From: Pirellulales bacterium
Lineage (GTDB): Bacteria; Planctomycetota; Planctomycetia; Pirellulales; Lacipirellulaceae
Assembly (NCBI GenBank): GCA_050248495.1
Contig: JBFWSG010000004.1
Span: forward strand, 23,686-87,685
Direction: 5' to 3'
Length of the DNA stretch: 64,000 bases
Part shown: positions 2,602 through 40,512 of the stretch, one piece after another
Layout of the letters: each line of letters starts with the position of its first letter
Numbering within the stretch: the stretch's first letter is position 1
Notes under the pieces: generated by a model
Told to the model about the DNA's origin: nothing
Seen by the model: only the letters and a program-made list of their open reading frames with translations
The model's database searches: none
Translations under genes and position numbers: made by a program

Positions 2602-2919
2602 ATGGCCCGGAAAGTAGTCAGTCGCAAAGAAAAACGAGCGGAAGTCGAAGCGGCGGAAAAGGCCGGCAAAAAGACGACGGCTACCAAGACCAAGAAGGAA
2701 CCGGGCGCCAAGGCGGCCCCCAAGCGCAAGAGCAGGGCCAAGGCGACCAAGGACATCCGCCTGAAGGCCTTCTGGGGCGTGTTCAATCAAACGCTCAAGC
2801 GGATCGCGCTATTCGAATACAGCGAGCGCAAGAAGGCGGATAAGATGGCCGCCGAGCTCACCGCCAACGGCAAGTCGCCCCACTTCGTCCAGCTGGTAAA
2901 AGACGTCGTGCAAGAGTAG
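2602..2919 (+). CDS. lysine/alanine-rich basic protein, histone H1-like / possibly nucleoid-associated
   Basis: The N-terminal ~55 aa are KKTTATKTKKEPGAKAAPKRKSRAKATK, low-complexity and highly basic. A non-repetitive C-terminal domain follows (FWGVFNQTLKRIALFEYSERKK...). Confidence 0.55.
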   Translation: MARKVVSRKEKRAEVEAAEKAGKKTTATKTKKEPGAKAAPKRKSRAKATKDIRLKAFWGVFNQTLKRIALFEYSERKKADKMAAELTANGKSPHFVQLVKDVVQE

Positions 2920-2943
2920 CGGCCCACAAGAATAGCGGCCCAC

Positions 2944-2965
2944 ATAGCCCGGCCATCCTGGCCGG
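2944..2965. repeat. REP-like palindromic unit, type A (ATAGCC + CCGGCCATCCTGGCCGG)
   Basis: CCGGCCA-TCC-TGGCCGG is a perfect hairpin. The same unit recurs at about 12352 and 40489. Confidence 0.7.
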
Positions 2966-3008
2966 TGCTGAGGCCGCGCTTTGTATTTCTTCGCCGATCG
3001 GCCCGGTT

Positions 3009-3030
3009 CGACCCAGGATGGGTCGGCTAT
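3009..3030. repeat. REP-like palindromic unit, type B (CGACCCAGGATGGGTCGGCTAT)
   Basis: CGACCCA-GGA-TGGGTCG is a perfect hairpin followed by GCTAT. It is the reverse-orientation analogue of type A and recurs twice at 40440-40488. Confidence 0.7.
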
Positions 3031-3038
3031 TTGCGCTG

Positions 3039-3135
3039 TCAGCCGCCGAGCACCGCGGTGAGCTTCTCCTTCGTCGCCGGGTCGTCGAACTCCAACTTGC
3101 CGAAGCCGCGATGGGCGCCGGCCGCGACTGCCGCA
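3039..3135 (-). pseudogene. 3'-terminal fragment (about 31 codons plus stop) of the receiver-like gene found intact at 5242-5610
   Basis: About 95 bp are roughly 90% identical to 5242-5340. The fragment translates to AAVAAGAHRGFGKLEFDDPATKEKLTAVLGG*, against AAVAAGAHRGFGKLEFDDPATREKLAAVLG* in the intact gene. Upstream of the fragment the similarity stops abruptly. The rest of the 3039..3689 minus-strand track ORF is antisense to the sigma-factor gene. Confidence 0.65.
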
Positions 3136-3239
3136 GGCTGGCGATTCTTCAGCACCGAGACACTTTCCGCGAAATGATTCGTGCCCTGTGGCGACTTGTA
3201 TGATGAAACGCGCAAGGCTGACGCGGTTCGGGTGCTCCG

Positions 3240-3776
3240 ATGACGGATTGGGATGACCTGGTGTGCCGAGAGGGACCGGCCGTTTGGCGGACGGCCTATC
3301 GGCTCATCGGGAATCAGGCTGACGCCGACGAGTGCTTTCAGGAGACGTTTCTCGCGGCACTGGAGCTGTCGCAGCGTCAGCCAGTTCGCAATTGGCCCGC
3401 GTTGCTGCAACGGCTCGCTACGACTCGCGCGGTCGACCGCATACGCAGCCGGATGCGGCGCAGACGGAGCGAAGAAGTCGCCGACGTCGCCTCCGCTGTA
3501 GGAAGCGAACCTGACCCGGCCGAGCAGATTGAAAGCAAAGAGTTGGTCGAAGCGCTGCGTTGGGCGGTGGCTCAATTGCCCGCCCGGCAGGCCGAGGCCT
3601 TCTGCCTTCATGAATTTGCCGACTGGAGCTTCGAGCAGGTTGCCGAGCAGCTGGGCACCACAGTCAACGCCGCGACGGTGCTGCTCCATCGCGCCCGACA
3701 GAAGCTACAAGAGCTGTTGAAGATGCAAAACTGTCTTTCGGCCGCACTCGACGAGCAGCGGCCAATTAGGGAATAG
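3240..3776 (+). CDS. ECF RNA polymerase sigma factor (sigma-70 family, regions 2 and 4)
   Basis: CFQETFLAALELSQ is region 2.2-like. EQVAEQLGTTVNAATVLLHRARQKLQELL is a region 4.2 helix-turn-helix. Confidence 0.9.
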   Translation: MTDWDDLVCREGPAVWRTAYRLIGNQADADECFQETFLAALELSQRQPVRNWPALLQRLATTRAVDRIRSRMRRRRSEEVADVASAVGSEPDPAEQIESKELVEALRWAVAQLPARQAEAFCLHEFADWSFEQVAEQLGTTVNAATVLLHRARQKLQELLKMQNCLSAALDEQRPIRE

Positions 3777-3780
3777 CGCC

Positions 3781-5232
3781 ATGACCGGCACGCATCGCAA
3801 CGAAGAATCCGAGGAGCTCTTGAATCGAGCTGTGGCCACAACTAGGCAACTGCCGCTGCCGACCGGGCCCTCGCCAGCCATCATGTCGCGAACTTTGGTG
3901 GCCTTGCGTGAGGCCGCGAGCCAGCCAGATATCACCTTTTTGCAAAGGATATATCACATGCCATGGACAACCAAAATAGCGGCGGCGTTGGCCACGGCAG
4001 CCAGTTTGTTGGTTGTATACGTGGGCCTATCGAACTTAACGGGCAGCGCACCGGCGTTTGCCGACGTCGTGGAAGTATTGAACAGCGTGCGTAGCGCCAC
4101 CTGGAAAACCACGACGGAGATCAAAGAGCTTCAAGAGGGATCAGTCTCATTGCTGGGCGGTGGAGTCACCACCACCAGAAGCTACGCCGCCGCGAGCGAG
4201 GAGAAGAGGCCTCAAAATGAGACCGGCGCAATGCGTGGCGCCGCGGAACGTGTGTCCACAGATGAGAACAGAGGCCCTCAAAACGAAACCGTCACTTTTG
4301 CCGGAGTTGGAATGTTCCTGGCACCTGCCCACGAACGAATGGAGTCTACCGGTCAGGGTGTGAAATCGATTCAAATCGTGGACGGTGAGAAGGACCAAGC
4401 ACTCACCCTGATTCCGGCCACGAAAATGGCCATCGTTATCCAGCTTAAAAACCTGCCACCAGGGCGCGAGAGTCCTTTCGGCAAGACTTTCCAAGGCTTG
4501 CGAGAGCTTGTTGTAGACGCCCAAAGTGGCAAAACGGGTAAGGCGGAGCGGCTTGGCGTCGAAACGATCGACGGCCGCCCTGCTGAGGGATTTCGAATTC
4601 AACTGGGCTCCACCGAAGTGAAGATCTGGGCCGATCCCAAAACTTTGCTGCCCGTCCGCGTCGAACAGACTACGACCTCCGGGCCGAAAGTCCGCCACGT
4701 GATGTCCGATTTTAAAGTCGACGTGGAACTCAACAAGGAATTGTTCAGCCTTGAATTGCCCAAAGGCTATACGCTCCAACAAACGGCACAGATCGACCTC
4801 GCGAAGGACCCGATCCACTATCTGGCGGAGACGCTGCGGCTCACGGCCGAAGTCAATGACGGTGTCTTTCCGCCCACGTTGCGCGGTGACGACGGCATCG
4901 ACGGAATTCTGATGCGATCGCCAGAAAAGTTGGCGAAAGCCATGGGCTCAGGCGCCGAGACTCCACAGCAATCAAGAGATACGGGAATCAAACTTTCTAT
5001 GAATCTCGGCGCTACGTTCGGCTTCTTAGGTGTACTCTCGGCTGAACAAAACGACTGGCACTACGCGGGCAAGGACGTCAAACTGAACGCGCCAAACCGG
5101 CCGATCTTCTGGCTCAGGCGCCACAAAGCGAGCGAGACCTACCAGGTGCTGTACGCCGATTTGAGCGTCAAAGAGGTTTCGCGGGAAAATGTGCCGAAGG
5201 CGCCGGCTCCGAATCCGCAGCCCGGGCCATGA
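3781..5232 (+). CDS. putative anti-sigma factor / single-pass membrane protein cognate to the upstream ECF sigma factor
   Basis: The gene starts 5 nt after the sigma factor stop. A cytoplasmic N-terminus is followed by one transmembrane helix (IAAALATAASLLVVYVGL) and a large extracytoplasmic domain with an internal RPQNET/GPQNET repeat. Confidence 0.6.
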   Translation: MTGTHRNEESEELLNRAVATTRQLPLPTGPSPAIMSRTLVALREAASQPDITFLQRIYHMPWTTKIAAALATAASLLVVYVGLSNLTGSAPAFADVVEVLNSVRSATWKTTTEIKELQEGSVSLLGGGVTTTRSYAAASEEKRPQNETGAMRGAAERVSTDENRGPQNETVTFAGVGMFLAPAHERMESTGQGVKSIQIVDGEKDQALTLIPATKMAIVIQLKNLPPGRESPFGKTFQGLRELVVDAQSGKTGKAERLGVETIDGRPAEGFRIQLGSTEVKIWADPKTLLPVRVEQTTTSGPKVRHVMSDFKVDVELNKELFSLELPKGYTLQQTAQIDLAKDPIHYLAETLRLTAEVNDGVFPPTLRGDDGIDGILMRSPEKLAKAMGSGAETPQQSRDTGIKLSMNLGATFGFLGVLSAEQNDWHYAGKDVKLNAPNRPIFWLRRHKASETYQVLYADLSVKEVSRENVPKAPAPNPQPGP

Positions 5233-5241
5233 GGCAATTGG

Positions 5242-5610
5242 CTATCCCAGCACCGCCGCGAGCTTCTCTCTCGTCGCCGGGTCGTCGAACTCCAACTTGC
5301 CGAAGCCGCGATGGGCTCCGGCCGCGACTGCCGCGTCCTGGTGATCGGCGTAGTTGGTGACGAGCATCACCGGCACATGGGCGACTTCGGCCGCCCGTTT
5401 GATCTCCCGCAGGATCTCGATGCCGTCCGAGTAGTCGGCGTCCAGCTTGCGGTTGATCAGCACCAGGTCGAAGTGGCCGGCGCGCAGCTCGGAGAGCGTA
5501 TCGGAGAGGCCGTGCGTCTGCACGATCTCGACATCGAAGTGGTTGGTGAGGTAACGTCGGATCGCGGCGTGGTCCGGCCCGCATTGCCCCACGTCGAGCA
5601 CGCGCTTCAC
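5242..5610 (-). CDS. receiver-like (CheY-fold) single-domain protein, atypical
   Basis: It is 122 aa with an alternating beta/alpha pattern and conserved-looking Thr (VMLVTNY) and Lys (GFGKLEF). The phospho-acceptor position appears to be Asn (DLVLIN), not Asp. Its start overlaps the upstream PQQ-propeller gene by 4 nt (5607-5610). Confidence 0.5.
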   Translation of the reverse strand: MKRVLDVGQCGPDHAAIRRYLTNHFDVEIVQTHGLSDTLSELRAGHFDLVLINRKLDADYSDGIEILREIKRAAEVAHVPVMLVTNYADHQDAAVAAGAHRGFGKLEFDDPATREKLAAVLG

Positions 5611-7400
5611 GACTTTGATTCCTTGTCGGCTGCTTTTTTGTCGTCCTTCTTGACGTCCTGCTTGCCGGCGGCCGCATCCTGCGAGGTATCTTTCTTCGGC
5701 GGCGCCTTGGGCTCGGCGCCTTCCTGGATCGCGAATAGGTGGGTGCGGTTGGCGATGTAGAGTACGTTGTCGGCGACGACGGGCGTGCTGTAGACGCTGT
5801 TGCCCATGTTGATTTCACCCAGCGCCGGCATATCGTCTTCCATGGCCACCTTTGGATCGGCTGAGTGACGGAAGATCGCGACGTCGCCATCTTCATCGCC
5901 GACATAGACTTTGCCGTCGACGATCAGCGGCGAGCCCCAGGCCGCGGCCAGCATGTCGTACACCCAGTTCACCTTGCCGGTCTTGGCGTTGAGGCAGTGG
6001 AACAACCCGCTGAAGTCCGCGATGTACAAGATGTCGTCCTTGATCGCCACGGTGCCCACAGTGCGGTGCATCGTTTCTTCAAAGTCGATCTCACCATCGC
6101 CGTTCGTGTCCTGGCTGGCGTAGTGCCAGATGACGGCCGAATTCGGATTCGGCCGCGCGAAGTCGCCCTCTTCCTTCACCACGGCCTGCAACCGCTTCGG
6201 CGGAATCGGCGTCGACGGGTCCTTCGAGTTGAAAGCCAGTTCCGGCGACACGTCGCCCCGCTTGGTCGGGTCGATGCAATACAAATGTCCGATGCCTTCG
6301 CCGTGCTCCGGATCCTCGCCGACCGCCACATACACCAGGCCGTCGTAAATTACCGGCGTGGCGATGATGTGGTTCCGCGTGGCCTTGCCGCTCACGGTGT
6401 AGAACGCATCCTTCGGGTTGGCGTCGAACTTCCAAAGCAACTTGGCATTGCCTTTGCCATCGCCCTCGGGAACGAAGCTGTAGACCCAGCCGTCCCCGCC
6501 GGCGAATAGAACTTGCGGCACTCCGCCCAGAACTCCATAAGTCGGCGACGACCACTGGCCGTGCAAAATGTTCAGCCCCGGCGAGCGGTCGGTCCAGAGC
6601 ACCTTCTTCGTGTCCTTATCCATTACGAAAAAACTCGGAGCATCCGGCGCGGGGATATAGTTGTGCTCGACGTCGACGCCGTTCGAAGTGTTGACGAACA
6701 ACAACTTGCCGGCGTCCGTCACCGAGCAGCTGCACATGTTGTGCTGCGAGATGCCCATCTCCTTCATCATGTCGAAGACCCAGATGACGTCGGCCTCGTC
6801 GTCGGTCGTGAACTGCTCGTCTTTATACGGCCCGTCATTTTCGCCGTCGTGGAAGCCCTCCGTGTCGAGGCAGCGGACCTCGCCGCGATTGGTGACAAAC
6901 CACAGCTTGTGGTCCTCGACCAGCGGCGCGGAGCAGACGCCCTGTTGCGGCCAATCGTGGACGCGCCCCGTCGGCAGCTTCTCGCTCGAATGCTGCCAGA
7001 GGAACCGACCGTCCTTGATGTCGAACGCCAACAGGCACCCCAAGTCGACGCTCGCCGGATAGCGGCTCAGCCAGCCGCCGTAGTTGTTAGTGCCGACAAA
7101 GACCTTGCCGTCGGCAACCACCGGATTGCCGTAGCTCTGCGAGCCGAGCTTGGCGACCCATTTGATATTCTTCGAGCCGGTCGGGTCCCAATCGCCCGTG
7201 CGGAGATTGAATTTGCCGACCTTCCATTCGCTCGGGATGTTGTGGCCGACCGCGACGTTATTGCGGCTGGACGAAATTCCCCATTGATTCACTTCGTGGG
7301 TGACCTTGTCATTCGTGTCGACGGCGTCGCCTGCAACCGCCGCCATACCAACAACACAGCATCCGCCCGTCACGATCAGCTTCAATAGCCAAAACTTCAT
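5607..7400 (-). CDS. PQQ-like beta-propeller repeat protein (BamB/PQQ enzyme-repeat family), secreted
   Basis: It has a signal peptide. Repeated motifs such as G.VY.G..DG.L.A.D..TGK..W recur throughout. The C-terminus is a lysine-rich tail. Confidence 0.8.
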   Translation of the reverse strand: MKFWLLKLIVTGGCCVVGMAAVAGDAVDTNDKVTHEVNQWGISSSRNNVAVGHNIPSEWKVGKFNLRTGDWDPTGSKNIKWVAKLGSQSYGNPVVADGKVFVGTNNYGGWLSRYPASVDLGCLLAFDIKDGRFLWQHSSEKLPTGRVHDWPQQGVCSAPLVEDHKLWFVTNRGEVRCLDTEGFHDGENDGPYKDEQFTTDDEADVIWVFDMMKEMGISQHNMCSCSVTDAGKLLFVNTSNGVDVEHNYIPAPDAPSFFVMDKDTKKVLWTDRSPGLNILHGQWSSPTYGVLGGVPQVLFAGGDGWVYSFVPEGDGKGNAKLLWKFDANPKDAFYTVSGKATRNHIIATPVIYDGLVYVAVGEDPEHGEGIGHLYCIDPTKRGDVSPELAFNSKDPSTPIPPKRLQAVVKEEGDFARPNPNSAVIWHYASQDTNGDGEIDFEETMHRTVGTVAIKDDILYIADFSGLFHCLNAKTGKVNWVYDMLAAAWGSPLIVDGKVYVGDEDGDVAIFRHSADPKVAMEDDMPALGEINMGNSVYSTPVVADNVLYIANRTHLFAIQEGAEPKAPPKKDTSQDAAAGKQDVKKDDKKAADKESKS

Positions 7401-7531: not shown

Positions 7532-9811
7532 TTAGTTGTTCGGCGTCACGATCACGTTGTCCACGAAGATTTCCGCCTCGGGACAATTGCCGTAGAGGCC
7601 CGGTGTGCCGTGCAGATTGGGCGACTGATCGACCATCTCGACGGTCCAGTCCTGCGGCTCGGCATCGCCGCGCTTCCAGATCTTGCCCATCACCTTGGCT
7701 TCCTTTTCGCCCGGCTCGACGCGCAGCTTCATCGTGTACCAGGTATCCGGCACCGGGTCGAAGTCGACGCTGGTGTGCTTGCGATAGTCGCTCGTCGTCC
7801 AGGAGTCGAGCCGCAGCTTCTTGCTCAGCCCGCGGATCGTGAGCTGGTAGCGGCCGTCGATCAGCCCGATGTCGGAAATCTTTCCGCTCGCTTCGTCCTT
7901 CTTCAGAAGCACGTCACCCTGGATCGTGTAGTTCGACAGGTCGATCGGCCCCATCCAAACGAAGCTCCGCGTGCCGAGCTTGTTGTTGGGATCTTTCGGC
8001 GTGGGGAGGACGGTCTTCTTGGCGATGTACTTCTCGCCGCCGCTCTCGCGCGGCTCGAAGCGGACCCGGCCGCCGATCCAGGTGAGCGGCACGTCGCCGT
8101 CGTTGAAGTCGAATTTCCAGGGGAGCGGCGGCGTGATCCGCACCCGGGCCGTGCCCGTCAAGTCGCCGAGCTTGCAGGTGACCAAGGCGGTGGCCTGCTT
8201 TGCGTCCTTGGGGGCGATGTACGTGCCGTCGGAGGTGATGCTCCCCGGGCCGTCGACTGCATATTTAAGTGCGTCCGGCGCAAGCTTAGCCTTGATTTCA
8301 CGTCCGCGGGAATCGAACAGCTTTACGTGATACGACTGCTCCCCGCCGGGCTTGAGCAGCGCGTCGTAGGGAATTACTTGGAGCTGGGCGGGGCCGGCCT
8401 TGCCGTCCGGCGTCGACTCCTTGGGCTCCGGCGGCAGCGGATCGGCCGACGGCTTCACCGACGGATCGGCGATGCAATACAGCGCGCGTGAGGTCGGCAG
8501 GAACAAGCGGCCATGCGACACCGCGAGCGAGCCATCGCTCTGGTCGTTCGGGAGCCGCAGCTGCTGGATGACTTTGACGCCGGTTTTCGTCGGCTTGAGG
8601 ACGTACCAGCGGCCTTCCATCGTGCACAGGTACAGCTTGCCGTCGGCCACCAGTGGCGTGCTCCGCATGCTGGTACCCAGCGCCTTGCGAGCGATGAACT
8701 CGCCCGTCTTGGCGTTATAGATGTAGAGCTTTGCCCGGTCGTCGACAAAGTAGACGCGATCGTCAAGGATCACTGGCGAGGACTTGCCCGCCATCACTTG
8801 CAGCTCTTGCCACAGCTCGGTCCCCGTCAGGTCGCCTGATTTCTTGCCGTCGAGCGCGACGACAGCACCCATCGAACTGCCAACGCGGTTCTCTTCGCTG
8901 TGACTGATATATACAGTGCCGTCCGGCGCCACCAGCGGCGAGACATTCATGCCGGAACCGGACATTGGATAATGCCAAAGCGGTTTGCCGGTCCGCGGCT
9001 GCAACGCCCACACTTCGCCGTCGCCCGAGGCAAACACCAGCGCCGCCTGGCCGTCGATCATCGTCACGGTTGGCGTGCTGTAAGTCGTATCGAAAGGACT
9101 GATGCCCGTGCCGTTGAGCCAGCGGAGCTCGCCGGTCTTCTTGTCGAAGGACATGAAGCGATGCGCCGGGCGCGCCAGCCCGCCCCACTTCGGTGCATCG
9201 CCCCAGCCGACCACTACGGCGCTGATCAGCACCGTGTCTTCGAACACCACCGGCACATTCGTCCGGCCGCCGTAGGTCGAGATCAGCCCGAACTCTTCAT
9301 GCAGGCTGCGCTCCCATTTGACTTTGCCGGTCTTGCCGTCGAGGCAACAGAAGTAACCGCTCACGCCCTGGATGTAGACGTCGCCGGTTTCGGGATCGAC
9401 GACCGGGCAGGACCAGCCAATCCGCTCGTCCGGCACGTCGGTCAGATACATGTTGAAGCTGTGTTCCCAGATCGTCTTGCCCGTTGCGGCGTCGACGCAG
9501 ACGACTTTCTCCGACTCTTCCTCCGTGGCCGGCTTATCTCGGACGATCGTGTAGAGGCGGTCCTGAAACACGACCGGCGACGAACGGCCGCCGAGGTCCT
9601 CGCGAATCCAGAGCAGATTGCTCCCCTGGCCGCCGTCCGGATCCCAGCTTTCCGGGAGCCCTTTTTCCGTGGAGACGCGATCCTGCCGCGGACCACGCCA
9701 ATTTGGCCAATCCATCGGGTCCGGACCGGCCGCGGCGACGAAACTCACCAGCGACTCGACGAGCAAAACGGACGCAAAACCAAGGGAAACGACGCGAAAT
9801 CGACCGTTCAT
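7532..9811 (-). CDS. PQQ-like beta-propeller repeat protein with an extra C-terminal beta-rich domain, secreted
   Basis: It is a paralogue of 5607-7400, with motifs such as CLDGKTGKVKWE and YIYNAKTGEF. The start is likely at 9811 (MNGRFRVVSLGFASVLLV signal peptide, AGGTGA Shine-Dalgarno 7 nt upstream); the track ORF extends to 9901. Confidence 0.8.
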   Translation of the reverse strand: MNGRFRVVSLGFASVLLVESLVSFVAAAGPDPMDWPNWRGPRQDRVSTEKGLPESWDPDGGQGSNLLWIREDLGGRSSPVVFQDRLYTIVRDKPATEEESEKVVCVDAATGKTIWEHSFNMYLTDVPDERIGWSCPVVDPETGDVYIQGVSGYFCCLDGKTGKVKWERSLHEEFGLISTYGGRTNVPVVFEDTVLISAVVVGWGDAPKWGGLARPAHRFMSFDKKTGELRWLNGTGISPFDTTYSTPTVTMIDGQAALVFASGDGEVWALQPRTGKPLWHYPMSGSGMNVSPLVAPDGTVYISHSEENRVGSSMGAVVALDGKKSGDLTGTELWQELQVMAGKSSPVILDDRVYFVDDRAKLYIYNAKTGEFIARKALGTSMRSTPLVADGKLYLCTMEGRWYVLKPTKTGVKVIQQLRLPNDQSDGSLAVSHGRLFLPTSRALYCIADPSVKPSADPLPPEPKESTPDGKAGPAQLQVIPYDALLKPGGEQSYHVKLFDSRGREIKAKLAPDALKYAVDGPGSITSDGTYIAPKDAKQATALVTCKLGDLTGTARVRITPPLPWKFDFNDGDVPLTWIGGRVRFEPRESGGEKYIAKKTVLPTPKDPNNKLGTRSFVWMGPIDLSNYTIQGDVLLKKDEASGKISDIGLIDGRYQLTIRGLSKKLRLDSWTTSDYRKHTSVDFDPVPDTWYTMKLRVEPGEKEAKVMGKIWKRGDAEPQDWTVEMVDQSPNLHGTPGLYGNCPEAEIFVDNVIVTPNN

Positions 9812-10527: not shown

Positions 10528-11319
10528 ATGAAGTGGAACTTTTTGGGAGCGCTCATGATGAGCATCGCCCTGGCGAGCCCAAGTTTTGCGACTTGCTGCT
10601 TGCTGGACAAGATGCTCGGGGGCGGCTGCGGATGCTGCGAAGAGGCAAGCTGCAGCTGTTGTGAAAAATCGTGCTGCTGCGAGGAAGCGTCCTGCGGTTG
10701 TGAAGACAGCTGCTGCTCCTCGTGCGGCTGCGGCGGCGGTGGCTGCTGCGTGCTCGATCGGCTGAGCGGCTTGTTCAGCTGTCATCACGGCTGCGGCTGC
10801 TGCGAAGCCAGCTGCGGTTGTGAAGAAGCTTCTTGCTGTGCCGAAGCCTCGTGCGGCTGCGAAGATAGCTGCTGCTCGAGCTGCGGTTGCAAGAAGGGCT
10901 GCTGCCTGTTGGACGGCCTGTGCGGCATGTTCAAGTGTCATCACGGCTGCGGCTGCTGCGAAGCCAGCTGCGGTTGTGAAGCTTCTTGCGGTTGCGAAGC
11001 CTCGTGCGGCTGCGAAGATAGCTGCTGCTCGAGCTGCGGCTGCAAGAAGGGCTGCTGCCTGCTCGGTGGCCTGTGCGGCCTGTTCGGTCACAATCACGGC
11101 TGCGGCTGCTGCGAAGCCAGCTGCTGCTGCGAGCCCAGCTGCGGCTGTGCCTCGTCGAGCTGTGGTTGCGAAGGTGGTGGCGACAGCGCCGCTCCTGCCG
11201 AAGAAGCTGCTCCTGAGGAGAACGCTTCGGCTCGCATGATCCCGCCGTTGCCGATGGCTGATCCGAATGCCTCGATCAGCCGCGAGCGCGACGTCGTCCG
11301 CACCAGCTTCACCCGCTAA
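10528..11319 (+). CDS. secreted, extremely cysteine-rich (about one-third Cys) tandem-repeat protein, metallothionein-like
   Basis: A GGAGA Shine-Dalgarno precedes the ATG at 10528. The signal peptide is MKWNFLGALMMSIALASPSFA. Three ~50-aa repeats follow (CHHGCGCCEASCGCE(E)ASC..EDSCCSSCGCKKGCCLL.GLCG.F) with CxC/CC motifs, Glu and His, and a Cys-free acidic tail. Confidence 0.8.
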   Translation: MKWNFLGALMMSIALASPSFATCCLLDKMLGGGCGCCEEASCSCCEKSCCCEEASCGCEDSCCSSCGCGGGGCCVLDRLSGLFSCHHGCGCCEASCGCEEASCCAEASCGCEDSCCSSCGCKKGCCLLDGLCGMFKCHHGCGCCEASCGCEASCGCEASCGCEDSCCSSCGCKKGCCLLGGLCGLFGHNHGCGCCEASCCCEPSCGCASSSCGCEGGGDSAAPAEEAAPEENASARMIPPLPMADPNASISRERDVVRTSFTR

Positions 11320-12348: not shown

Positions 12349-12400
12349 ACATAGCCCGGCCATCCTGGCCGGAACAGGGTTTGGCCATCCCGGCCGGGAA
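12349..12400. repeat. REP-like element (two type-A-like palindromes)
   Basis: catagcccGGCCATCCTGGCCgg aacagggttt GGCCATCCCGGCCgg lies between two convergent genes. Confidence 0.65.
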
Positions 12401-17064: not shown

Positions 17065-17166
17065 CTCCACCCTCAACCCTCCACCCTCAACCCTCCACCC
17101 TCAACCCTCCACCCTCAACCCTCCACCCTCAACCCTCCACCCTCCACCCTCCACCCTCCACTCCAC
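17065..17166. repeat. C-rich tandem minisatellite: (CTCCACCCTCAACC)x5 then (CTCCACC)x3
   Basis: It lies directly upstream (within 5 nt) of the ATG at 17171. Confidence 0.8.
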
Positions 17167-20686: not shown

Positions 20687-20726
20687 CGCGCGGATAGCTT
20701 TCAAAGCTTTGAAAGCTATCCGCGCG
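20687..20726. promoter_or_regulatory. 40-bp perfect palindrome CGCGCGGATAGCTTTC-AAAGCTTT-GAAAGCTATCCGCGCG
   Basis: Two 16-nt arms around a palindromic 8-nt core were verified by eye. It lies about 160 bp upstream of hicB and about 340 bp upstream of the HNH gene. Confidence 0.75.
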
Positions 20727-21567: not shown

Positions 21568-21727
21568 TGGTGCTCCTTAGCCATCCAGCGCGGTCGCCCG
21601 GAATGCCAGGCGAAGGGGGCGGGATGGTCGCAGGGCCGCAGAATCGCGGCAAGACCGCAGAGACGCACTCGGCGTGCCGGCGGCGACATTGTGGTAAGCT
21701 GGGCGAAATTCCGCCGGGGGTCCGACT

Positions 21728-21782
21728 CGCACACTTACATCCAGCACCACCTCGCTTTGGGTGGTGCTGGATTAAGTGTGCG
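21728..21782. terminator. long hairpin with a 23-bp stem and one bulge, directly downstream of the 21788..22432 gene
   Basis: cgcacacttaCatccagcaccacc-tcgctttg-ggtggtgctggattaagtgtgcg. Its left arm is part of a 39-bp direct repeat shared with 25788-25825. Confidence 0.55.
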
Positions 21783-22601: not shown

Positions 22602-23561
22602 CTAGTCCGCCATCACATTCTCAATCATTTCTCGCACCGACCACACCTTTGTTGCAACGCCGTGGGCAACGGCCGGCGTCAGCCCTTTCAATGTCTTGTG
22701 TTGACGGCAATAGTTGTAATGACAGAAGTACACGGCCAGCGCGGCACGGTGGTTGTTCCACTTCTTTGAGAAGCAGTAGGTCAAGCGGCCCATGCGCTTC
22801 ATGTGGGTGCGGATGCTGCCGTTCATTCGCTCAACGTGCGAGGTGCATATCTGATCTTGTTGGAATGGCGTGCCGTGCATCGGGGTCCGGCTGGCCCCTA
22901 TTATCCGAGCCGGTGAGTACCGGCGCTGGTCCTCGTAGACATTGACGCCGTATATCTTTTGCATCACGCCGTGGTCGACGCGGTGTCCAAGCTGCTTTTT
23001 GATTTCGCTTGGATAGCTCCGCCAGCCGTCGCTACTAACGTGGAAGTGACCGAACGTGGCCCGGTCCAGTTTGGCGATGAACTGCTCGGTGTGCTGCTGG
23101 CTGCGGCGGCCCATGTGCCAAGTAATGAGCAGCTTTGATTGGCGGTCGATGGCGGTGTAGCAATAGCTGTCGCCGCAGCCGCCAACCATCTTCTGCGCTT
23201 TTGTGGTCGCGTTTTTTGCTAAAATAAATTGCCAAATTTCGTCCACCTGGGTGTCGCTGACAAACACGTCCTTAATGTGTTCGGCCATGTACTTTTCGCA
23301 GTGCTCGCCGAGCATCGTGAGCAGCGAGAGGATCGTCATTAAGTCGGTGCCGGTGAAGCGGGCGGTGGCGCGAACATTCATGCCCTCGCACAGCAGCTCG
23401 ACGATCTTGGCGGCTTGCTCAACGCCGATCCGCATGCCGCCCAGCATGGCGGTGGATTCGGTCCAGGACGCGCCGCAGCTCTTGCAGCGGTAGCGGGTGG
23501 CCCCGGCCTTAGTTTTCCCATTCGTGCGGCGGTTCTCATGCTGACAGACGGCGGCAATCAT
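22602..23561 (-). CDS. DDE transposase, IS1595-family-like
   Basis: An N-terminal zinc ribbon (RYRCKSCGASWTE) is followed by a DDE-like core (DEIW..., AIDR, SDGWRSY). The C-terminal motif is YFCHYNYCRQHKTLKGLTPAVAHG. Confidence 0.75.
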   Translation of the reverse strand: MIAAVCQHENRRTNGKTKAGATRYRCKSCGASWTESTAMLGGMRIGVEQAAKIVELLCEGMNVRATARFTGTDLMTILSLLTMLGEHCEKYMAEHIKDVFVSDTQVDEIWQFILAKNATTKAQKMVGGCGDSYCYTAIDRQSKLLITWHMGRRSQQHTEQFIAKLDRATFGHFHVSSDGWRSYPSEIKKQLGHRVDHGVMQKIYGVNVYEDQRRYSPARIIGASRTPMHGTPFQQDQICTSHVERMNGSIRTHMKRMGRLTYCFSKKWNNHRAALAVYFCHYNYCRQHKTLKGLTPAVAHGVATKVWSVREMIENVMAD

Positions 23562-25787: not shown

Positions 25788-25825
25788 TGCCGGGGGACCG
25801 ACTCGCACACTTAATCCAGCACCAC
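25788..25825. repeat. direct repeat of 21713-21751 (gccgggggWccgactcgcacacttaMatccagcaccacc)
   Basis: Of 38 nt, 37 match copy A with one extra base, and the match extends a further 10 nt (gccctttgg vs tcgctttgg). The two copies bracket 4.07 kb holding the zinc-finger membrane gene, the transposase, the RHH gene and the coiled-coil gene. Confidence 0.6.
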
Positions 25826-26431
25826 CGCCCTTTGGCACACCCGTTGCATCTAATCCGTCGTCGCCTGAACGATCAGGCACCAAGCGTTCGGAACAAACGC
25901 TCGGGGCCGAACAGAGAAGAGGCATTTTGTCTGGGGTCGGTCGGCGAAGAGGCAAATCTGCCGTGTTCGGATCTGCATATCAGGAAAGAAGTTAGCGAGA
26001 TCTGCCCACCTCCCACAGAAACTCGCAAACCAGGCGCATTTCCGACACGTCACGGGCGAGTCGCGGTCTTCCGAGAGGCTAGACCACGACTCGCCCATCT
26101 TTTTTGACTGTTGCAAAATCGTACATGTGTATTTTTCCAATACACTTTTCTGGGACACTTCGTCACCCACCTGCCAGTCGACAAATCACGTCCGCAGAAT
26201 TTTTCCAAGATTTTCTCGGCCGCCAATTCGCGGAATCGCTCGACCCGCAAATCCACGACTGCTCAACTGTGTGTCCCCCGGTTGAGCAGTCGCAAAAAGC
26301 CGGCAAAAAGTGGTAGCCGCCCGTTGAACAGTCGCCCCCTTTTTTTCCGACACCTCGCACCGCCTGCGGACGTTAGAACGTGGGGCAGCCAAATCCGCGC
26401 GGTCGATCATAATCAAGCAATGAGGATCTCA

Positions 26432-40439: not shown

Positions 40440-40512
40440 CGACCCTGGATGGGTCGGCTATTTTTCACGACCCAAGATGGGTCGGCTATATAGCCCGGCC
40501 ATCTTGGCCGGA
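40440..40512. repeat. REP-like array: two type-B units plus one type-A unit
   Basis: cgaccctggatgggtcggctat ttttca cgacccaagatgggtcggctat atagcccggccatcttggccgg. Confidence 0.7.

What the first reader, a model, noticed from the sequence alone, without database searches (positions are those of the whole stretch)
3039..5340. ECF sigma/anti-sigma cassette flanked by ~95-bp direct repeats derived from the receiver gene 3' end
The last ~95 bp of the receiver-like gene (5242-5340) are duplicated at 3039-3135 with about 90% identity. The duplicate still reads as AAVAAGAHRGFGKLEFDDPATKEKLTAVLGG*. The two copies directly bracket the sigma-factor and anti-sigma genes (3240-5232). Two REP-like palindromes sit next to the upstream copy. 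This looks like the scar of an insertion or recombination event that delivered a regulatory cassette into the 3' end of the receiver gene, possibly REP-mediated. It would be a mechanism for modular gain of ECF pairs.
Basis: seen in the sequence. Interest (0 to 1): 0.6.

Follow-up and report, generated by a model that had tools for sequence, protein, structure and literature searches.

The report
Duplicated receiver tail beside ECF cassette
A roughly 100-base leftover copy of the end of a response-regulator gene sits upstream of an optional sigma/anti-sigma gene pair in a planctomycete genome, and comparison with about 20 related genomes suggests it is a recombination scar joining a cassette-free version of the locus to a cassette-carrying one, a tidy but fairly ordinary example of how regulatory gene pairs move between relatives.

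Summary
The repeat is real. Window 3046-3145 matches 5246-5345 at 90/100, with spacing of exactly 2200 bp. The upstream copy is the last 33 codons of the receiver gene.

The ECF sigma/anti-sigma pair between the copies is accessory. Close relatives (Lacipirellulaceae-like MAGs) have receiver and g105 converging directly. Four other lineages carry the cassette at the same right-hand junction, and none of them has the duplicate.

The upstream copy continues into the native intergenic region with its two REP-like hairpins. Its tail (LGG-TGA) matches the receiver tail seen in cassette-free ("empty-site") relatives. The copy in the intact gene has the cassette-linked tail (LG-TAG).

My best reading (about 0.5): the left half of an empty-site allele was joined to a cassette allele at an imperfect 8-nt microhomology (3138-3145), about 30 nt upstream of a conserved ECF-type promoter. 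This resembles homology-facilitated illegitimate recombination or Campbell-type integration. It is not the scar of the original insertion, and I found no transposon, integrase or DGR signature.

Two distant cassette homologues in unrelated contexts (L099/L096 and L098) are also bracketed by 130-180-nt direct repeats. In L099 the repeat includes the tail of the convergent gene, so the pattern recurs. Interest is moderate.

The parts
2602..2919 (+). g105: a conserved small lysine-rich protein (105 aa). It is the left-flank core gene and converges on the receiver gene in empty-site relatives.
   Evidence: ORF. There is no Pfam hit. It is 80-96% aa identical in syntenic relatives and lies directly next to the receiver in empty-site loci.
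2944..2965 (+). REP-like hairpin A (ATAGCC CGGCC ATCCTGG CCGG), part of the native intergenic region.
   Evidence: Pattern search gives 6 copies in the window vs 0.02 expected. The element sits at the orthologous position in L002, L003, L123 and L129. It folds as a stem-loop.
3009..3030 (-). REP-like hairpin B (ATAGCC GACCC ATCCTGG GTCG on the minus strand). In empty-site relatives its ATAGCC head supplies the receiver stop codon.
3031..3045 (-). A 15-nt stretch present only in the upstream copy. It carries the fragment's own TGA stop (3039-3041) and the extra Gly codon, giving the empty-site-type receiver tail LGG*.
   Evidence: Alignments. Receiver orthologues P0124, P0127 and P0128 end in ...KEKLAAVLGG. 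P0128 and P0127 sit at empty sites.
3039..3145 (-). FRAG: a displaced copy of the last 33 codons of the receiver gene, truncated at about codon 89. It is probably a pseudogene remnant.
   Evidence: tblastn of the receiver protein gives 77% over residues 84-122, E=2.6e-15.
3136..3145 (.). The novel junction. The receiver-derived sequence meets the cassette's upstream region at an imperfect microhomology: CTGGCGAT here, CTGGTGAT in the receiver, CCGGCGAAAT in the L122 cassette.
   Evidence: Read directly from the alignments. Assigning the crossover to this exact spot is an inference.
3171..3196 (+). Putative ECF-type promoter (GAAAT-N16-CGACT) for the sigma/anti-sigma operon. Only about 30 nt of cassette DNA remain upstream of it.
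   Evidence: The block is conserved with L122 (83% over 92 nt) and recognisable in L082 and L118. No sigma-70 consensus was found. The promoter assignment is inferred, not tested.
3240..3776 (+). ECF sigma factor (178 aa).
   Evidence: Pfam Sigma70_r2 5.9e-9 and Sigma70_r4_2 9e-14.
3781..5232 (+). Putative anti-sigma/sensor protein (483 aa). It has an N-terminal cytoplasmic segment, one hydrophobic helix (about residues 63-83) and a LolA-like/DUF2092 periplasmic domain. Its middle part (3843-4700) is mosaic.
   Evidence: Weak DUF2092 hit. Homologues are named LolA or lipoprotein-sorting proteins by their sources and are always paired with the sigma gene. Mosaicism is shown.
5233..5245 (.). The old right-hand junction of the cassette (GGCAATT + GGCTAT). 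It is shared with L082 and L118. The GGCTAT is a REP head that provides the receiver's TAG stop.
5242..5610 (-). Intact single-domain receiver gene (122 aa). Its last about 100 nt (5246-5345) form the downstream repeat copy and carry the cassette-linked tail LG*.
5607..7400 (-). PQQ/BamB-like beta-propeller gene. It is the right-flank core gene and was used as the synteny anchor.

Best explanation
The locus is a hybrid of two alleles that both circulate in this clade. One is an empty-site allele: g105 > REP-A REP-B < receiver. The other is a cassette allele: g105 > ... promoter-sigma-antisigma < receiver.

In the window, the left part comes from an empty-site allele. It runs from g105 through both REP hairpins and the receiver tail up to about codon 89. 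It is fused to the right part of a cassette allele, which runs from about 30 nt upstream of the ECF promoter through sigma, anti-sigma, the old cassette/receiver junction and the whole receiver gene.

Only one new joint was needed, at an imperfect 8-nt microhomology (3138-3145). The other crossover would have been ordinary homologous recombination in a flanking core gene. DNA from a close relative therefore entered by one homologous and one illegitimate crossover. This is homology-facilitated illegitimate recombination, or equivalently single-crossover integration of a circle that carried promoter-sigma-antisigma plus about 100 nt of receiver tail.

The resident receiver tail was displaced and left as a non-functional fragment. 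The intact receiver now ends in the cassette-linked tail.

Shown here: the repeat, the allele types, the shared old junction, and the absence of the fragment in other cassette lineages. Inferred: the order of events, which allele was the recipient, and the enzymology.
For: 1. The cassette is polymorphic among lineages that are all about 82-88% nt identical to the window. Empty sites: L002-L006, L123-L129. Cassette-bearing: L082, L122, L118-121, L103.

2. The right junction GGCAATTGGCTATCC is shared with L082 and, slightly diverged, with L118, which points to a single old insertion. Those lineages have no receiver remnant: tblastn gives one hit each, and Smith-Waterman alignment of their upstream regions against their own receiver tails gives z<1.

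3. The fragment is contiguous with an intact REP-A/REP-B intergenic region, as in empty-site relatives L002, L003 and L123. Cassette lineages have degraded REPs or none.

4. The fragment's tail is LGG + TGA with Lys at the K/R position, as in the empty-site alleles P0124/P0127/P0128. The intact gene carries the LG + TAG tail found in all cassette alleles.

5. The two copies are 93% identical to each other, and each is 89% or less identical to any sampled lineage. The duplicate is therefore younger than the cassette's residence at this site.

6. The derived substitutions split about evenly between the two copies (my reading of the alignments), and the fragment keeps an open frame. This fits two alleles that were both functional until recently.

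7. The junction keeps the conserved promoter block.

8. The cassette holds only sigma and anti-sigma. I found no recombinase, terminal inverted repeats, tRNA or Rfam element.

9. The same architecture occurs independently at L099/L096 and L098. Their left ends are variable and unconserved (-95, -160 and -291 nt from the sigma ATG), as expected for illegitimate joints.
Against: - No genome close enough to act as the empty-site or cassette parent was found. The nearest lineages are about 85% nt identical. The donor/recipient scenario is therefore indirect, and sliding-window comparison shows no recombination tract in the right flank.
- The differences between the copies seem to cluster in the 25 nt next to the stop (5 of 7), but the clustering is not significant (max chi-square permutation p=0.11). 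The sequence alone cannot separate this model from an old duplicate refreshed by gene conversion.
- Three of roughly 15 independent cassette loci show bracketing repeats. That is high for an event type that is normally rare relative to scarless double crossovers, and it hints at a more systematic process.
- Natural transformation or another DNA-uptake route has not been shown for these organisms (my own knowledge).
Confidence: 0.5

Rival explanations
1. Long target duplication at the primary insertion. Whatever inserted the cassette duplicated about 120 nt of target (receiver tail plus REP head). The other cassette lineages later lost or overwrote their fragment. In the window, gene conversion from the intact copy has kept the fragment similar.
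For: Independent cassette homologues are also bracketed by 130-180-nt direct repeats that begin 0-13 nt after the anti-sigma stop (L098; L099, with a fragment of the convergent gene also in L096). At L099/L096 the fragment predates the split of the two lineages: 71-78% between the copies vs 86-89% between the lineages. The regions upstream of the promoter in L082, L122 and L118 are lineage-specific orphans, so that side has clearly been remodelled.
Against: It needs at least three independent complete losses at this locus, plus gene conversion, plus a 15-nt deletion in the intact copy before the lineages split. No remnant is detectable where about 80% identity would be expected. The cassette left ends are not conserved between L098 and L099, which argues against an element with defined ends. 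No enzyme candidate is encoded in the cassette.
Confidence: 0.15
2. In-situ secondary duplication. In a cassette-bearing ancestor, a break or stalled fork upstream of the sigma promoter was repaired by template switching. This copied about 100 nt of the receiver tail from 2 kb away (MMBIR or templated insertion) and replaced the previous upstream sequence.
For: There is microhomology at the 3136-3145 junction. The two copies are each other's nearest relatives. No foreign DNA needs to be invoked.
Against: The fragment's tail is not a copy of the intact gene's tail. It has the extra Gly codon, a TGA stop and the 15-nt stretch, and it runs straight into an intact REP-B exactly as in empty-site alleles. 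Three independent in-situ copies (window, L098, L099) would each have to start within 0-13 nt of the anti-sigma stop by coincidence.
Confidence: 0.12
3. A small integrative element mobilised in trans. The repeats would be attL/attR made by a site-specific recombinase that targets the 3' end of the receiver gene, with the element carrying a replacement gene end, as in genomic islands or CIME-like elements.
For: The architecture is the classical one: an intact gene with an element-borne tail, a displaced native tail at the far end, and direct repeats. The copies share identical runs of 46 and 17 nt.
Against: There is no integrase, excisionase or transposase in the 2.2-kb unit. Related cassettes are flanked by repeats from entirely different targets: the receiver tail, a beta-helix gene tail, and an intergenic sequence. 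No conserved att site exists. Four lineages carry the cassette at the same site without a second repeat. No relatives were found on viral contigs.
Confidence: 0.05
4. The fragment is kept because it does something. It might encode a small protein (GenBank calls a 58-aa ORF here). It might give an antisense RNA to the receiver mRNA tail when g105 transcription reads through. With the REP hairpins it might insulate the sigma promoter.
For: The open frame is retained over 33 codons. An ORF is called on the NCBI contig. Convergent-gene tail fragments sit in the same place relative to the sigma gene at L099/L096 and have persisted there through a lineage split.
Against: The fragment is absent from every other lineage carrying the same cassette at the same locus. 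The L099/L096 fragments have decayed to 71-78% and lost their frame. No Rfam family matches. A 33-residue receiver tail has no plausible fold of its own (inference).
Confidence: 0.05

Closest known systems
Homology-facilitated illegitimate recombination (HFIR), described for naturally transformable bacteria such as Acinetobacter and Streptococcus
   Same: One end of the incoming DNA is anchored by homology in a conserved flanking gene. The other end joins at a short GC-rich microhomology. The net effect is gain or replacement of non-homologous DNA between relatives, with a single novel junction.
   Different: It is known from laboratory transformation assays. Here it is only inferred from a natural sequence, in a phylum where competence is undocumented. 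The illegitimate joint lies inside the anchor gene's own tail, so a gene-end duplicate is left rather than a deletion.
Campbell-type single-crossover integration of a circular DNA (as with suicide plasmids)
   Same: The insert ends up flanked by direct repeats of the homologous segment. One repeat completes the gene and the other is a truncated copy.
   Different: There is no plasmid or replicon backbone. The circle would have to be a 2.2-kb excision or duplication-collapse product with only about 100 nt of homology.
C-terminal displacement at rhs / cdiA toxin loci (orphan toxin-immunity modules)
   Same: Incoming DNA brings a new gene 3' end plus linked cargo, and the resident 3' end is displaced and persists as a fragment. 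An Rhs-type locus with such repeats was seen in passing in L008.
   Different: In the toxin loci the displaced tips are alternative functional toxins, and the repeats are conserved core sequence. Here the cargo is a regulatory pair, and the displaced tail is nearly the same as the new one.
Integrative elements that duplicate the 3' end of their target gene (att repeats of prophages, ICEs and genomic islands)
   Same: A gene-end direct repeat brackets accessory DNA, and the target gene remains intact.
   Different: There is no integrase and no conserved att core across related cassettes. The same cassette also occurs at the same site without repeats.
REP/BIME intergenic palindromes
   Same: Short imperfect palindromes occur as an inverted pair between convergent genes. 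They are dispersed in the genome and conserved at orthologous sites.
   Different: They are bystanders to the new junction. No RAYT transposase was looked for or seen.
Diversity-generating retroelement TR/VR pairs
   Same: A repeat of about 100 nt and about 90% identity involves the 3' end of a gene.
   Different: There is no reverse transcriptase between or beside the repeats. The substitutions are not adenine-specific. The target is not a variable ligand-binding fold.

Membership tests
ECF (group 4) sigma factor | Sigma-70 region 2 and region 4 only, about 170-200 aa | tested here: met
   PF04542 5.9e-9 and PF08281 9e-14, 178 aa.
ECF (group 4) sigma factor | Co-transcribed cognate anti-sigma factor with a recognisable anti-sigma domain | tested here: inconclusive
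   The downstream gene starts 5 nt after the sigma stop and has one hydrophobic helix and a periplasmic LolA-like domain. It is paired with the sigma gene in every locus where the upstream sequence is present. No Pfam anti-sigma domain was detected.
REP-like intergenic repeat | Short imperfect palindrome present in many dispersed intergenic copies | tested here: met
   6 matches in 64 kb vs 0.02 expected. The copies at 12351 and 40440-40511 lie between ORFs. Stem-loops are predicted.
REP-like intergenic repeat | Associated RAYT (Y1 transposase) in the genome | not tested
   Only 64 kb of the genome is available, and no search was run.
Transposon / insertion sequence | Element-encoded transposase | tested here: not met
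   The only genes between the repeats are sigma and the LolA-like protein.
Transposon / insertion sequence | Terminal inverted repeats and a short (2-15 bp) target-site duplication | tested here: not met
   No inverted repeat pairs the two cassette ends. The duplication is about 100-120 nt. Left ends are not conserved between related cassettes.
Site-specific integrative element (att-flanked island) | Integrase or recombinase within or next to the element | tested here: not met
   None lies within 3146-5240 or in the adjacent genes g105, g151, the receiver or the PQQ proteins.
Site-specific integrative element (att-flanked island) | Same att core wherever the element family integrates | tested here: not met
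   The repeats at the window, L098 and L099 are unrelated sequences derived from each local target.
Diversity-generating retroelement | Reverse transcriptase gene near the TR | tested here: not met
   No such ORF lies between or beside the repeats.
Diversity-generating retroelement | TR/VR mismatches confined to adenines of the TR | tested here: not met
   The substitutions are T/C, C/A, A/G, G/A, A/G, C/G and C/G.
Homology-facilitated illegitimate recombination product | Novel joint at a 3-10-nt microhomology | tested here: met
   CTGGCGAT (3138-3145) vs receiver CTGGTGAT and L122 cassette CCGGCGAAAT. The match is imperfect, and the placement of the crossover is inferred.
Homology-facilitated illegitimate recombination product | A homologous anchor tract of donor origin on the other side | tested here: inconclusive
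   All sampled relatives are equidistant (82-88%) along both flanks, so no tract boundary is visible.
Homology-facilitated illegitimate recombination product | Uptake of exogenous DNA by the host | not testable with these tools
   This needs experiments or population read data.

The most novel reading that the evidence does not exclude
The LolA-type ECF sigma/anti-sigma pair may be a recurrently mobile two-gene unit without its own recombinase. It would land at the 3' ends or terminator regions of convergent genes. Each landing would generate or bring a 100-190-nt direct duplication of the local target, including the last about 35 codons of the neighbouring gene. This would be a systematic route, for example duplication-derived circles re-integrating by RecA, or a replication template-switch at hairpin-rich convergent terminators. 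It would explain the modular gain, loss and exchange of ECF modules in planctomycetes.

Three independent loci (window, L099/L096, L098/L106) out of roughly 15 show the pattern. The right boundary always lies within 13 nt of the anti-sigma stop.
Probability: 0.15. Interest if true: 0.7.

Novelty: new member of a known kind. Interest (0 to 1): 0.35.

Why it matters
ECF sigma/anti-sigma pairs are among the most expanded regulators in planctomycetes, and how genomes gain and lose them is poorly documented.

This locus gives a worked natural example. One cassette is present or absent among lineages that are otherwise equally related. It is exchanged as a block with the linked tail of the neighbouring gene. 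In one genome it was caught with the displaced gene end still readable, so the junction can be mapped to within about 10 nt.

If the recurrence at unrelated loci holds up, it would point to a general, recombinase-free way of moving small regulatory modules.

For annotation, the 58-aa ORF called over 3039-3215 should be treated as a gene remnant.

Tried and rejected
- DGR (TR/VR): rejected. There is no reverse transcriptase, and the substitutions are not A-specific.
- Transposon or IS with a target-site duplication: rejected. There is no transposase and no terminal inverted repeats.
- tRNA- or integrase-type island: rejected. There are no tRNAs in the window and no integrase.
- Known RNA element in or near the fragment: none found.
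- Phage carriage: no cassette relatives on IMG/VR contigs.
- Decayed fragment hidden in the upstream regions of L082, L122, L118 and L103: local alignment against their own receiver tails is no better than shuffles. Those regions match nothing else fetched.
- Tandem duplication of the 2.2-kb unit followed by REP-REP deletion: rejected. It predicts a fragment with the cassette-type tail, not the 15-nt LGG-TGA tail.
- Recombination breakpoint inside the repeat: the max chi-square test is not significant (p=0.11).
- Search for a donor tract in the right flank by sliding identity against five relatives: no transition found.
- Metagenome scan with the anti-sigma alignment returned only distant relatives (52% or less). 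Three encoding-contig look-ups returned no DNA.
- ECF group assignment from the 2021 reclassification paper: that paper does not mention LolA or DUF2092 partners.
- A literature search for HFIR with duplication gave nothing directly relevant.
Full report
**Observation.** The region was read directly and ORFs were listed.
- The repeat finder reports one long direct pair, 3046-3145 vs 5246-5345: 100 nt, 90% identical, exactly 2200 bp apart (alignment).
- A self-BLAST of the 64-kb window gives E=3e-32 for this pair and finds no further copy.
- The downstream copy is the 3' end of a 122-aa single-domain receiver gene (5242-5610, minus strand, PF00072).
- The upstream copy reads, on the minus strand, as the last 33 codons of that gene with its own stop at 3039-3041.
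- Between the copies lie an ECF sigma gene (3240-3776) and a 483-aa membrane protein with a LolA-like/DUF2092 region (3781-5232). The latter's stop is 9 nt from the receiver stop.

**Organism and relatives.**
- The receiver protein is found on an NCBI MAG contig (GCA_050175285.1) with the identical arrangement.
- Anchoring on the adjacent PQQ/BamB-like gene retrieved 80 syntenic loci from Pirellulales/Lacipirellulaceae-like genomes.
- Across most of them, where the contig extends far enough, the order is pqq789 > pqq597 > receiver > < g105 < g151. In L002, L003 and L004, the closest of these genome loci (86-88% aa in pqq597), nothing lies between the receiver and g105.
- The sigma/anti-sigma pair is therefore accessory DNA at this site. 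Its G+C content is slightly low (55-58% vs 62%).

**The cassette is older than the repeat.**
- Homologues of the anti-sigma-like protein and of the receiver led to further contigs.
- L082, L122, L118-121 and L103 carry the cassette between g105 and the receiver.
- L123-125, L126-128 and L129 are empty sites.
- All these lineages are about equally distant from the window (82-88% nt over the flanking genes). Presence and absence are therefore interleaved.
- The right-hand junction, anti-sigma stop + GGCAATT + GGCTAT(stop)CC, is the same in the window and L082 and recognisably the same in L118. This implies one original insertion that has since been inherited or exchanged.
- None of these other cassette-bearing loci has a receiver fragment. 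tblastn finds a single receiver hit in each. Local alignment of their g105-sigma spacers against their own receiver tails scores no better than shuffles (z<1), whereas the window scores z=45.
- Their spacers are lineage-specific orphan sequences. Only the last about 95 nt before the sigma ATG is conserved. That block contains a GAAAT-N16-CGACT motif at window 3171-3196, which I take to be an ECF-type promoter. This is an inference.

**What the upstream copy is attached to.**
- On its outer side the fragment runs into the 119-nt spacer 2920-3038. This spacer contains two hairpins in inverted orientation, at 2944-2965 and 3009-3030.
- The same pair, in the same order, sits between the receiver and g105 in empty-site relatives L002, L003 and L123. 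There the receiver's TAG stop lies inside the ATAGCC head of hairpin B.
- The motif ATAGCC-N3-CC-ATCCTGG-N3-G occurs six times in the window against 0.02 expected, always between ORFs. It folds as a 7-bp stem with a 3-nt loop.
- The fragment's tail differs from the intact copy by a 15-nt stretch (3031-3045). This gives an extra Gly codon and a TGA stop (…KEKLTAVLGG*).
- Receiver orthologues P0124, P0127 and P0128 end …KEKLAAVLGG. P0128 (L129) sits at an empty site next to a g105-type gene. P0127's short contig, for which only called genes were returned, has a convergent gene 62 nt downstream, which also looks like an empty site.
- The intact window gene ends …REKLAAVLG* with TAG in ATAGCC, followed at once by cassette DNA, as in L082 and L118; L122 has the same LG tail with a TAA stop.
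- The left 220 nt (2920-3135) therefore look like an intact empty-site allele cut off at receiver codon 89. Everything to the right looks like a cassette allele.

**Relative age.**
- Over the 89-91-nt core the two copies are about 92-93% identical. The best match of either copy to any other lineage is 89% (L082), then 86-87%.
- The copies share derived states against L082 and L118. By my reading of the alignments, the substitutions that separate them split about evenly between the two copies (differences listed).
- Five of the seven differences lie in the 25 nt next to the stop, but a max chi-square permutation test gives p=0.11. I do not rely on this clustering.
- The substitutions are not adenine-specific.

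**The junction.**
- Receiver-derived sequence ends at 3135.
- The next 10 nt (AGGCTGGCGAT…) resemble both the receiver (GTCCTGGTGATC) and the corresponding cassette-upstream sequence of L122 (TCCGGCGAAATC).
- Clear homology to L122 then runs to the sigma ATG, at 83% over 92 nt.
- This is what an illegitimate joint at a short microhomology looks like. It leaves about 30 nt upstream of the putative -35 element.

**Best explanation (about 0.5).** The window is a recombinant between an empty-site allele and a cassette allele from closely related cells.
- One crossover was homologous, in a flanking core gene. The other was an illegitimate joint at 3136-3145.
- In one version, an empty-site genome received promoter-sigma-antisigma-receiver DNA anchored in the receiver/pqq genes, and its own receiver tail was displaced.
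- In the other version, a cassette genome received g105-spacer-receiver-tail DNA anchored in g105. The data cannot tell which.
- A circle carrying the 2.2-kb unit and integrating by a single crossover would give the same product.
- This model accounts for six things with one new junction: the empty-site-type tail, the intact REP pair, the shared old right junction, the absence of fragments elsewhere, the youth of the duplicate, and the preserved promoter.
- It also suggests why the fragment is short. With longer homology, the second crossover would have been legitimate and scarless. This point is an inference.

**Rivals.**
- *Long target duplication at the original insertion, then loss in the other lineages and gene conversion in the window (0.15).* Its main support is recurrence elsewhere (see below). 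It needs several extra events at this locus and has no enzyme candidate.
- *In-situ templated copy of the intact tail (0.12).* It does not explain the empty-site-type tail, nor why the downstream repeat copy at three independent loci starts within 13 nt of the anti-sigma stop.
- *att-flanked element mobilised in trans (0.05).* There is no integrase, no conserved att site, and the same cassette sits at the same site without repeats.
- *A functional small ORF, antisense RNA or insulator (0.05).* The fragment is absent from all other carriers of this cassette at this locus, and there is no Rfam match.
- *DGR, IS/transposon and tRNA-island readings* were tested and failed.

**Recurrence.** I tested every fetched cassette homologue with enough flanking sequence for repeats between the region upstream of sigma and the region downstream of the anti-sigma gene.
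- L098 has sigma 49% and anti-sigma 39% aa identity to the window. It lies between an S41-like peptidase gene (my reading of its sequence, no domain search run) and a DUF4276/AAA_21 pair, and carries a 133-nt, 87% repeat starting 1 nt after the anti-sigma stop. The short contig L106 holds the downstream copy at 97.6% identity.
- L099 lies between an RND-type pump gene (again my reading) and a 972-aa beta-helix protein (Pfam). It has a 177-nt, 78% repeat starting 13 nt after the stop. This repeat comprises 72 nt of spacer plus the last about 35 codons of the convergent beta-helix gene. The upstream copy still reads TPIGESVEG…REGNVF.
- L096, its 86-91% identical relative, keeps the same fragment next to the sigma gene, although extra genes now separate the parts.
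- L083 has only a 56-nt palindromic repeat.
- The left ends lie at -95, -160 and -291 nt from the sigma ATG. They share no sequence.
- In a blind survey of all 1.66 Mb fetched, only about eight to ten loci have direct repeats of 60 nt or more lying 1.5-8 kb apart. Three of them bracket exactly this cassette family.
It fits repeated illegitimate or homologous exchange at polymorphic sites at least as well as a dedicated mechanism. I give the dedicated-mechanism reading about 0.15.

**Comparison with known systems.**
- The process resembles homology-facilitated illegitimate recombination and Campbell-type integration.
- The outcome resembles C-terminal displacement at rhs/cdiA loci. An Rhs-type example with such repeats turned up in L008.
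- It mimics, but does not meet the criteria for, att-flanked integrative elements, transposons or DGRs (see the membership table).
- The palindromes meet the operational definition of REPs.
- Statements about HFIR, Campbell integration and Rhs displacement rest on my own knowledge. The literature searches here returned nothing specific.

**Verdict.** This is a readable recombination scar at a presence/absence-polymorphic ECF cassette, made by known kinds of processes. The hint of recurrence is modest but real and worth a systematic survey. Interest 0.35.

Noticed in passing
window 3843-4700 (inside the anti-sigma-like gene): The middle of the gene is mosaic. It is 79% nt identical over 851 nt to L083, a cassette in an unrelated context, but only 69-71% identical over about 385 nt to the syntenic cassettes L082 and L122. 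Both ends of the gene are 88-95% identical to L082. The window and L083 also share a roughly 48-aa insertion with an internal ...PQNET... repeat that other homologues lack.
   Followed up: partly
window 2944-2965, 3009-3030, 12351-12372, 40440-40461, 40468-40489, 40490-40511: A REP-like palindrome family (ATAGCC-N3-CC-ATCYTGG-N3-G) is dispersed in intergenic regions, often as inverted pairs at convergent gene ends. Its ATAGCC head supplies the stop codon of the receiver gene in several relatives.
   Followed up: partly
window 2911-2942: A 16-nt tandem duplication (CAAGAGTAGCGGCCCA / CAAGAATAGCGGCCCA) spans the g105 stop codon. The relatives aligned do not have it.
   Followed up: no
window 21713-21760 and 25789-25835: 48-nt direct repeats (92%) bracket about 4 kb. 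The interval holds an IS1/rve-type DDE transposase (22602-23561), a DnaJ-CXXCXGXG zinc-finger membrane protein and a 543-aa coiled-coil-like ORF. It looks like an inserted element with att- or target-like repeats. No tRNA is present.
   Followed up: partly
window 20687-20726: A perfect 40-nt palindrome found by self-BLAST.
   Followed up: no
window 10623-11132 and 17065-17161: Two tandem arrays: a Cys/Gly-rich array with a 153-165-nt period (2.5-3 copies, 82-88%) and a 7/14-nt CTCCACC microsatellite (about 14 copies).
   Followed up: no
L001 7084-9381 (just outside the window's left end): A second ECF sigma gene followed by a Ser/Thr protein kinase gene lies about 2 kb beyond g227. This is an ECF-STK-type pairing typical of planctomycetes.
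   Followed up: no
L019 6019-6216 vs 8030-8225; L063 11989-12112, 15029-15149, 19360-19483: In L019 the pqq597 orthologue is itself bracketed by 199-nt, 75% direct repeats. In L063 a 124-nt element occurs three times, with the first copy starting 10 nt after the receiver gene.
   Followed up: no
L082 4143-4400, L122 8301-8516, L118 1796-2010: The spacer between g105 and the conserved sigma promoter block is a different, unalignable orphan sequence in each cassette-bearing lineage. Other intergenic regions of the same loci are 80-88% identical to the window. The left side of the cassette has been remodelled repeatedly.
   Followed up: partly
L096 3249-4499 and 7541-9106: Relative to L099, L096 has gained an HTH + M78/IrrE-type peptidase gene upstream of the cassette and a 521-aa DUF5074-like gene downstream. 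This separates the gene-tail fragment from both of its original neighbours.
   Followed up: partly
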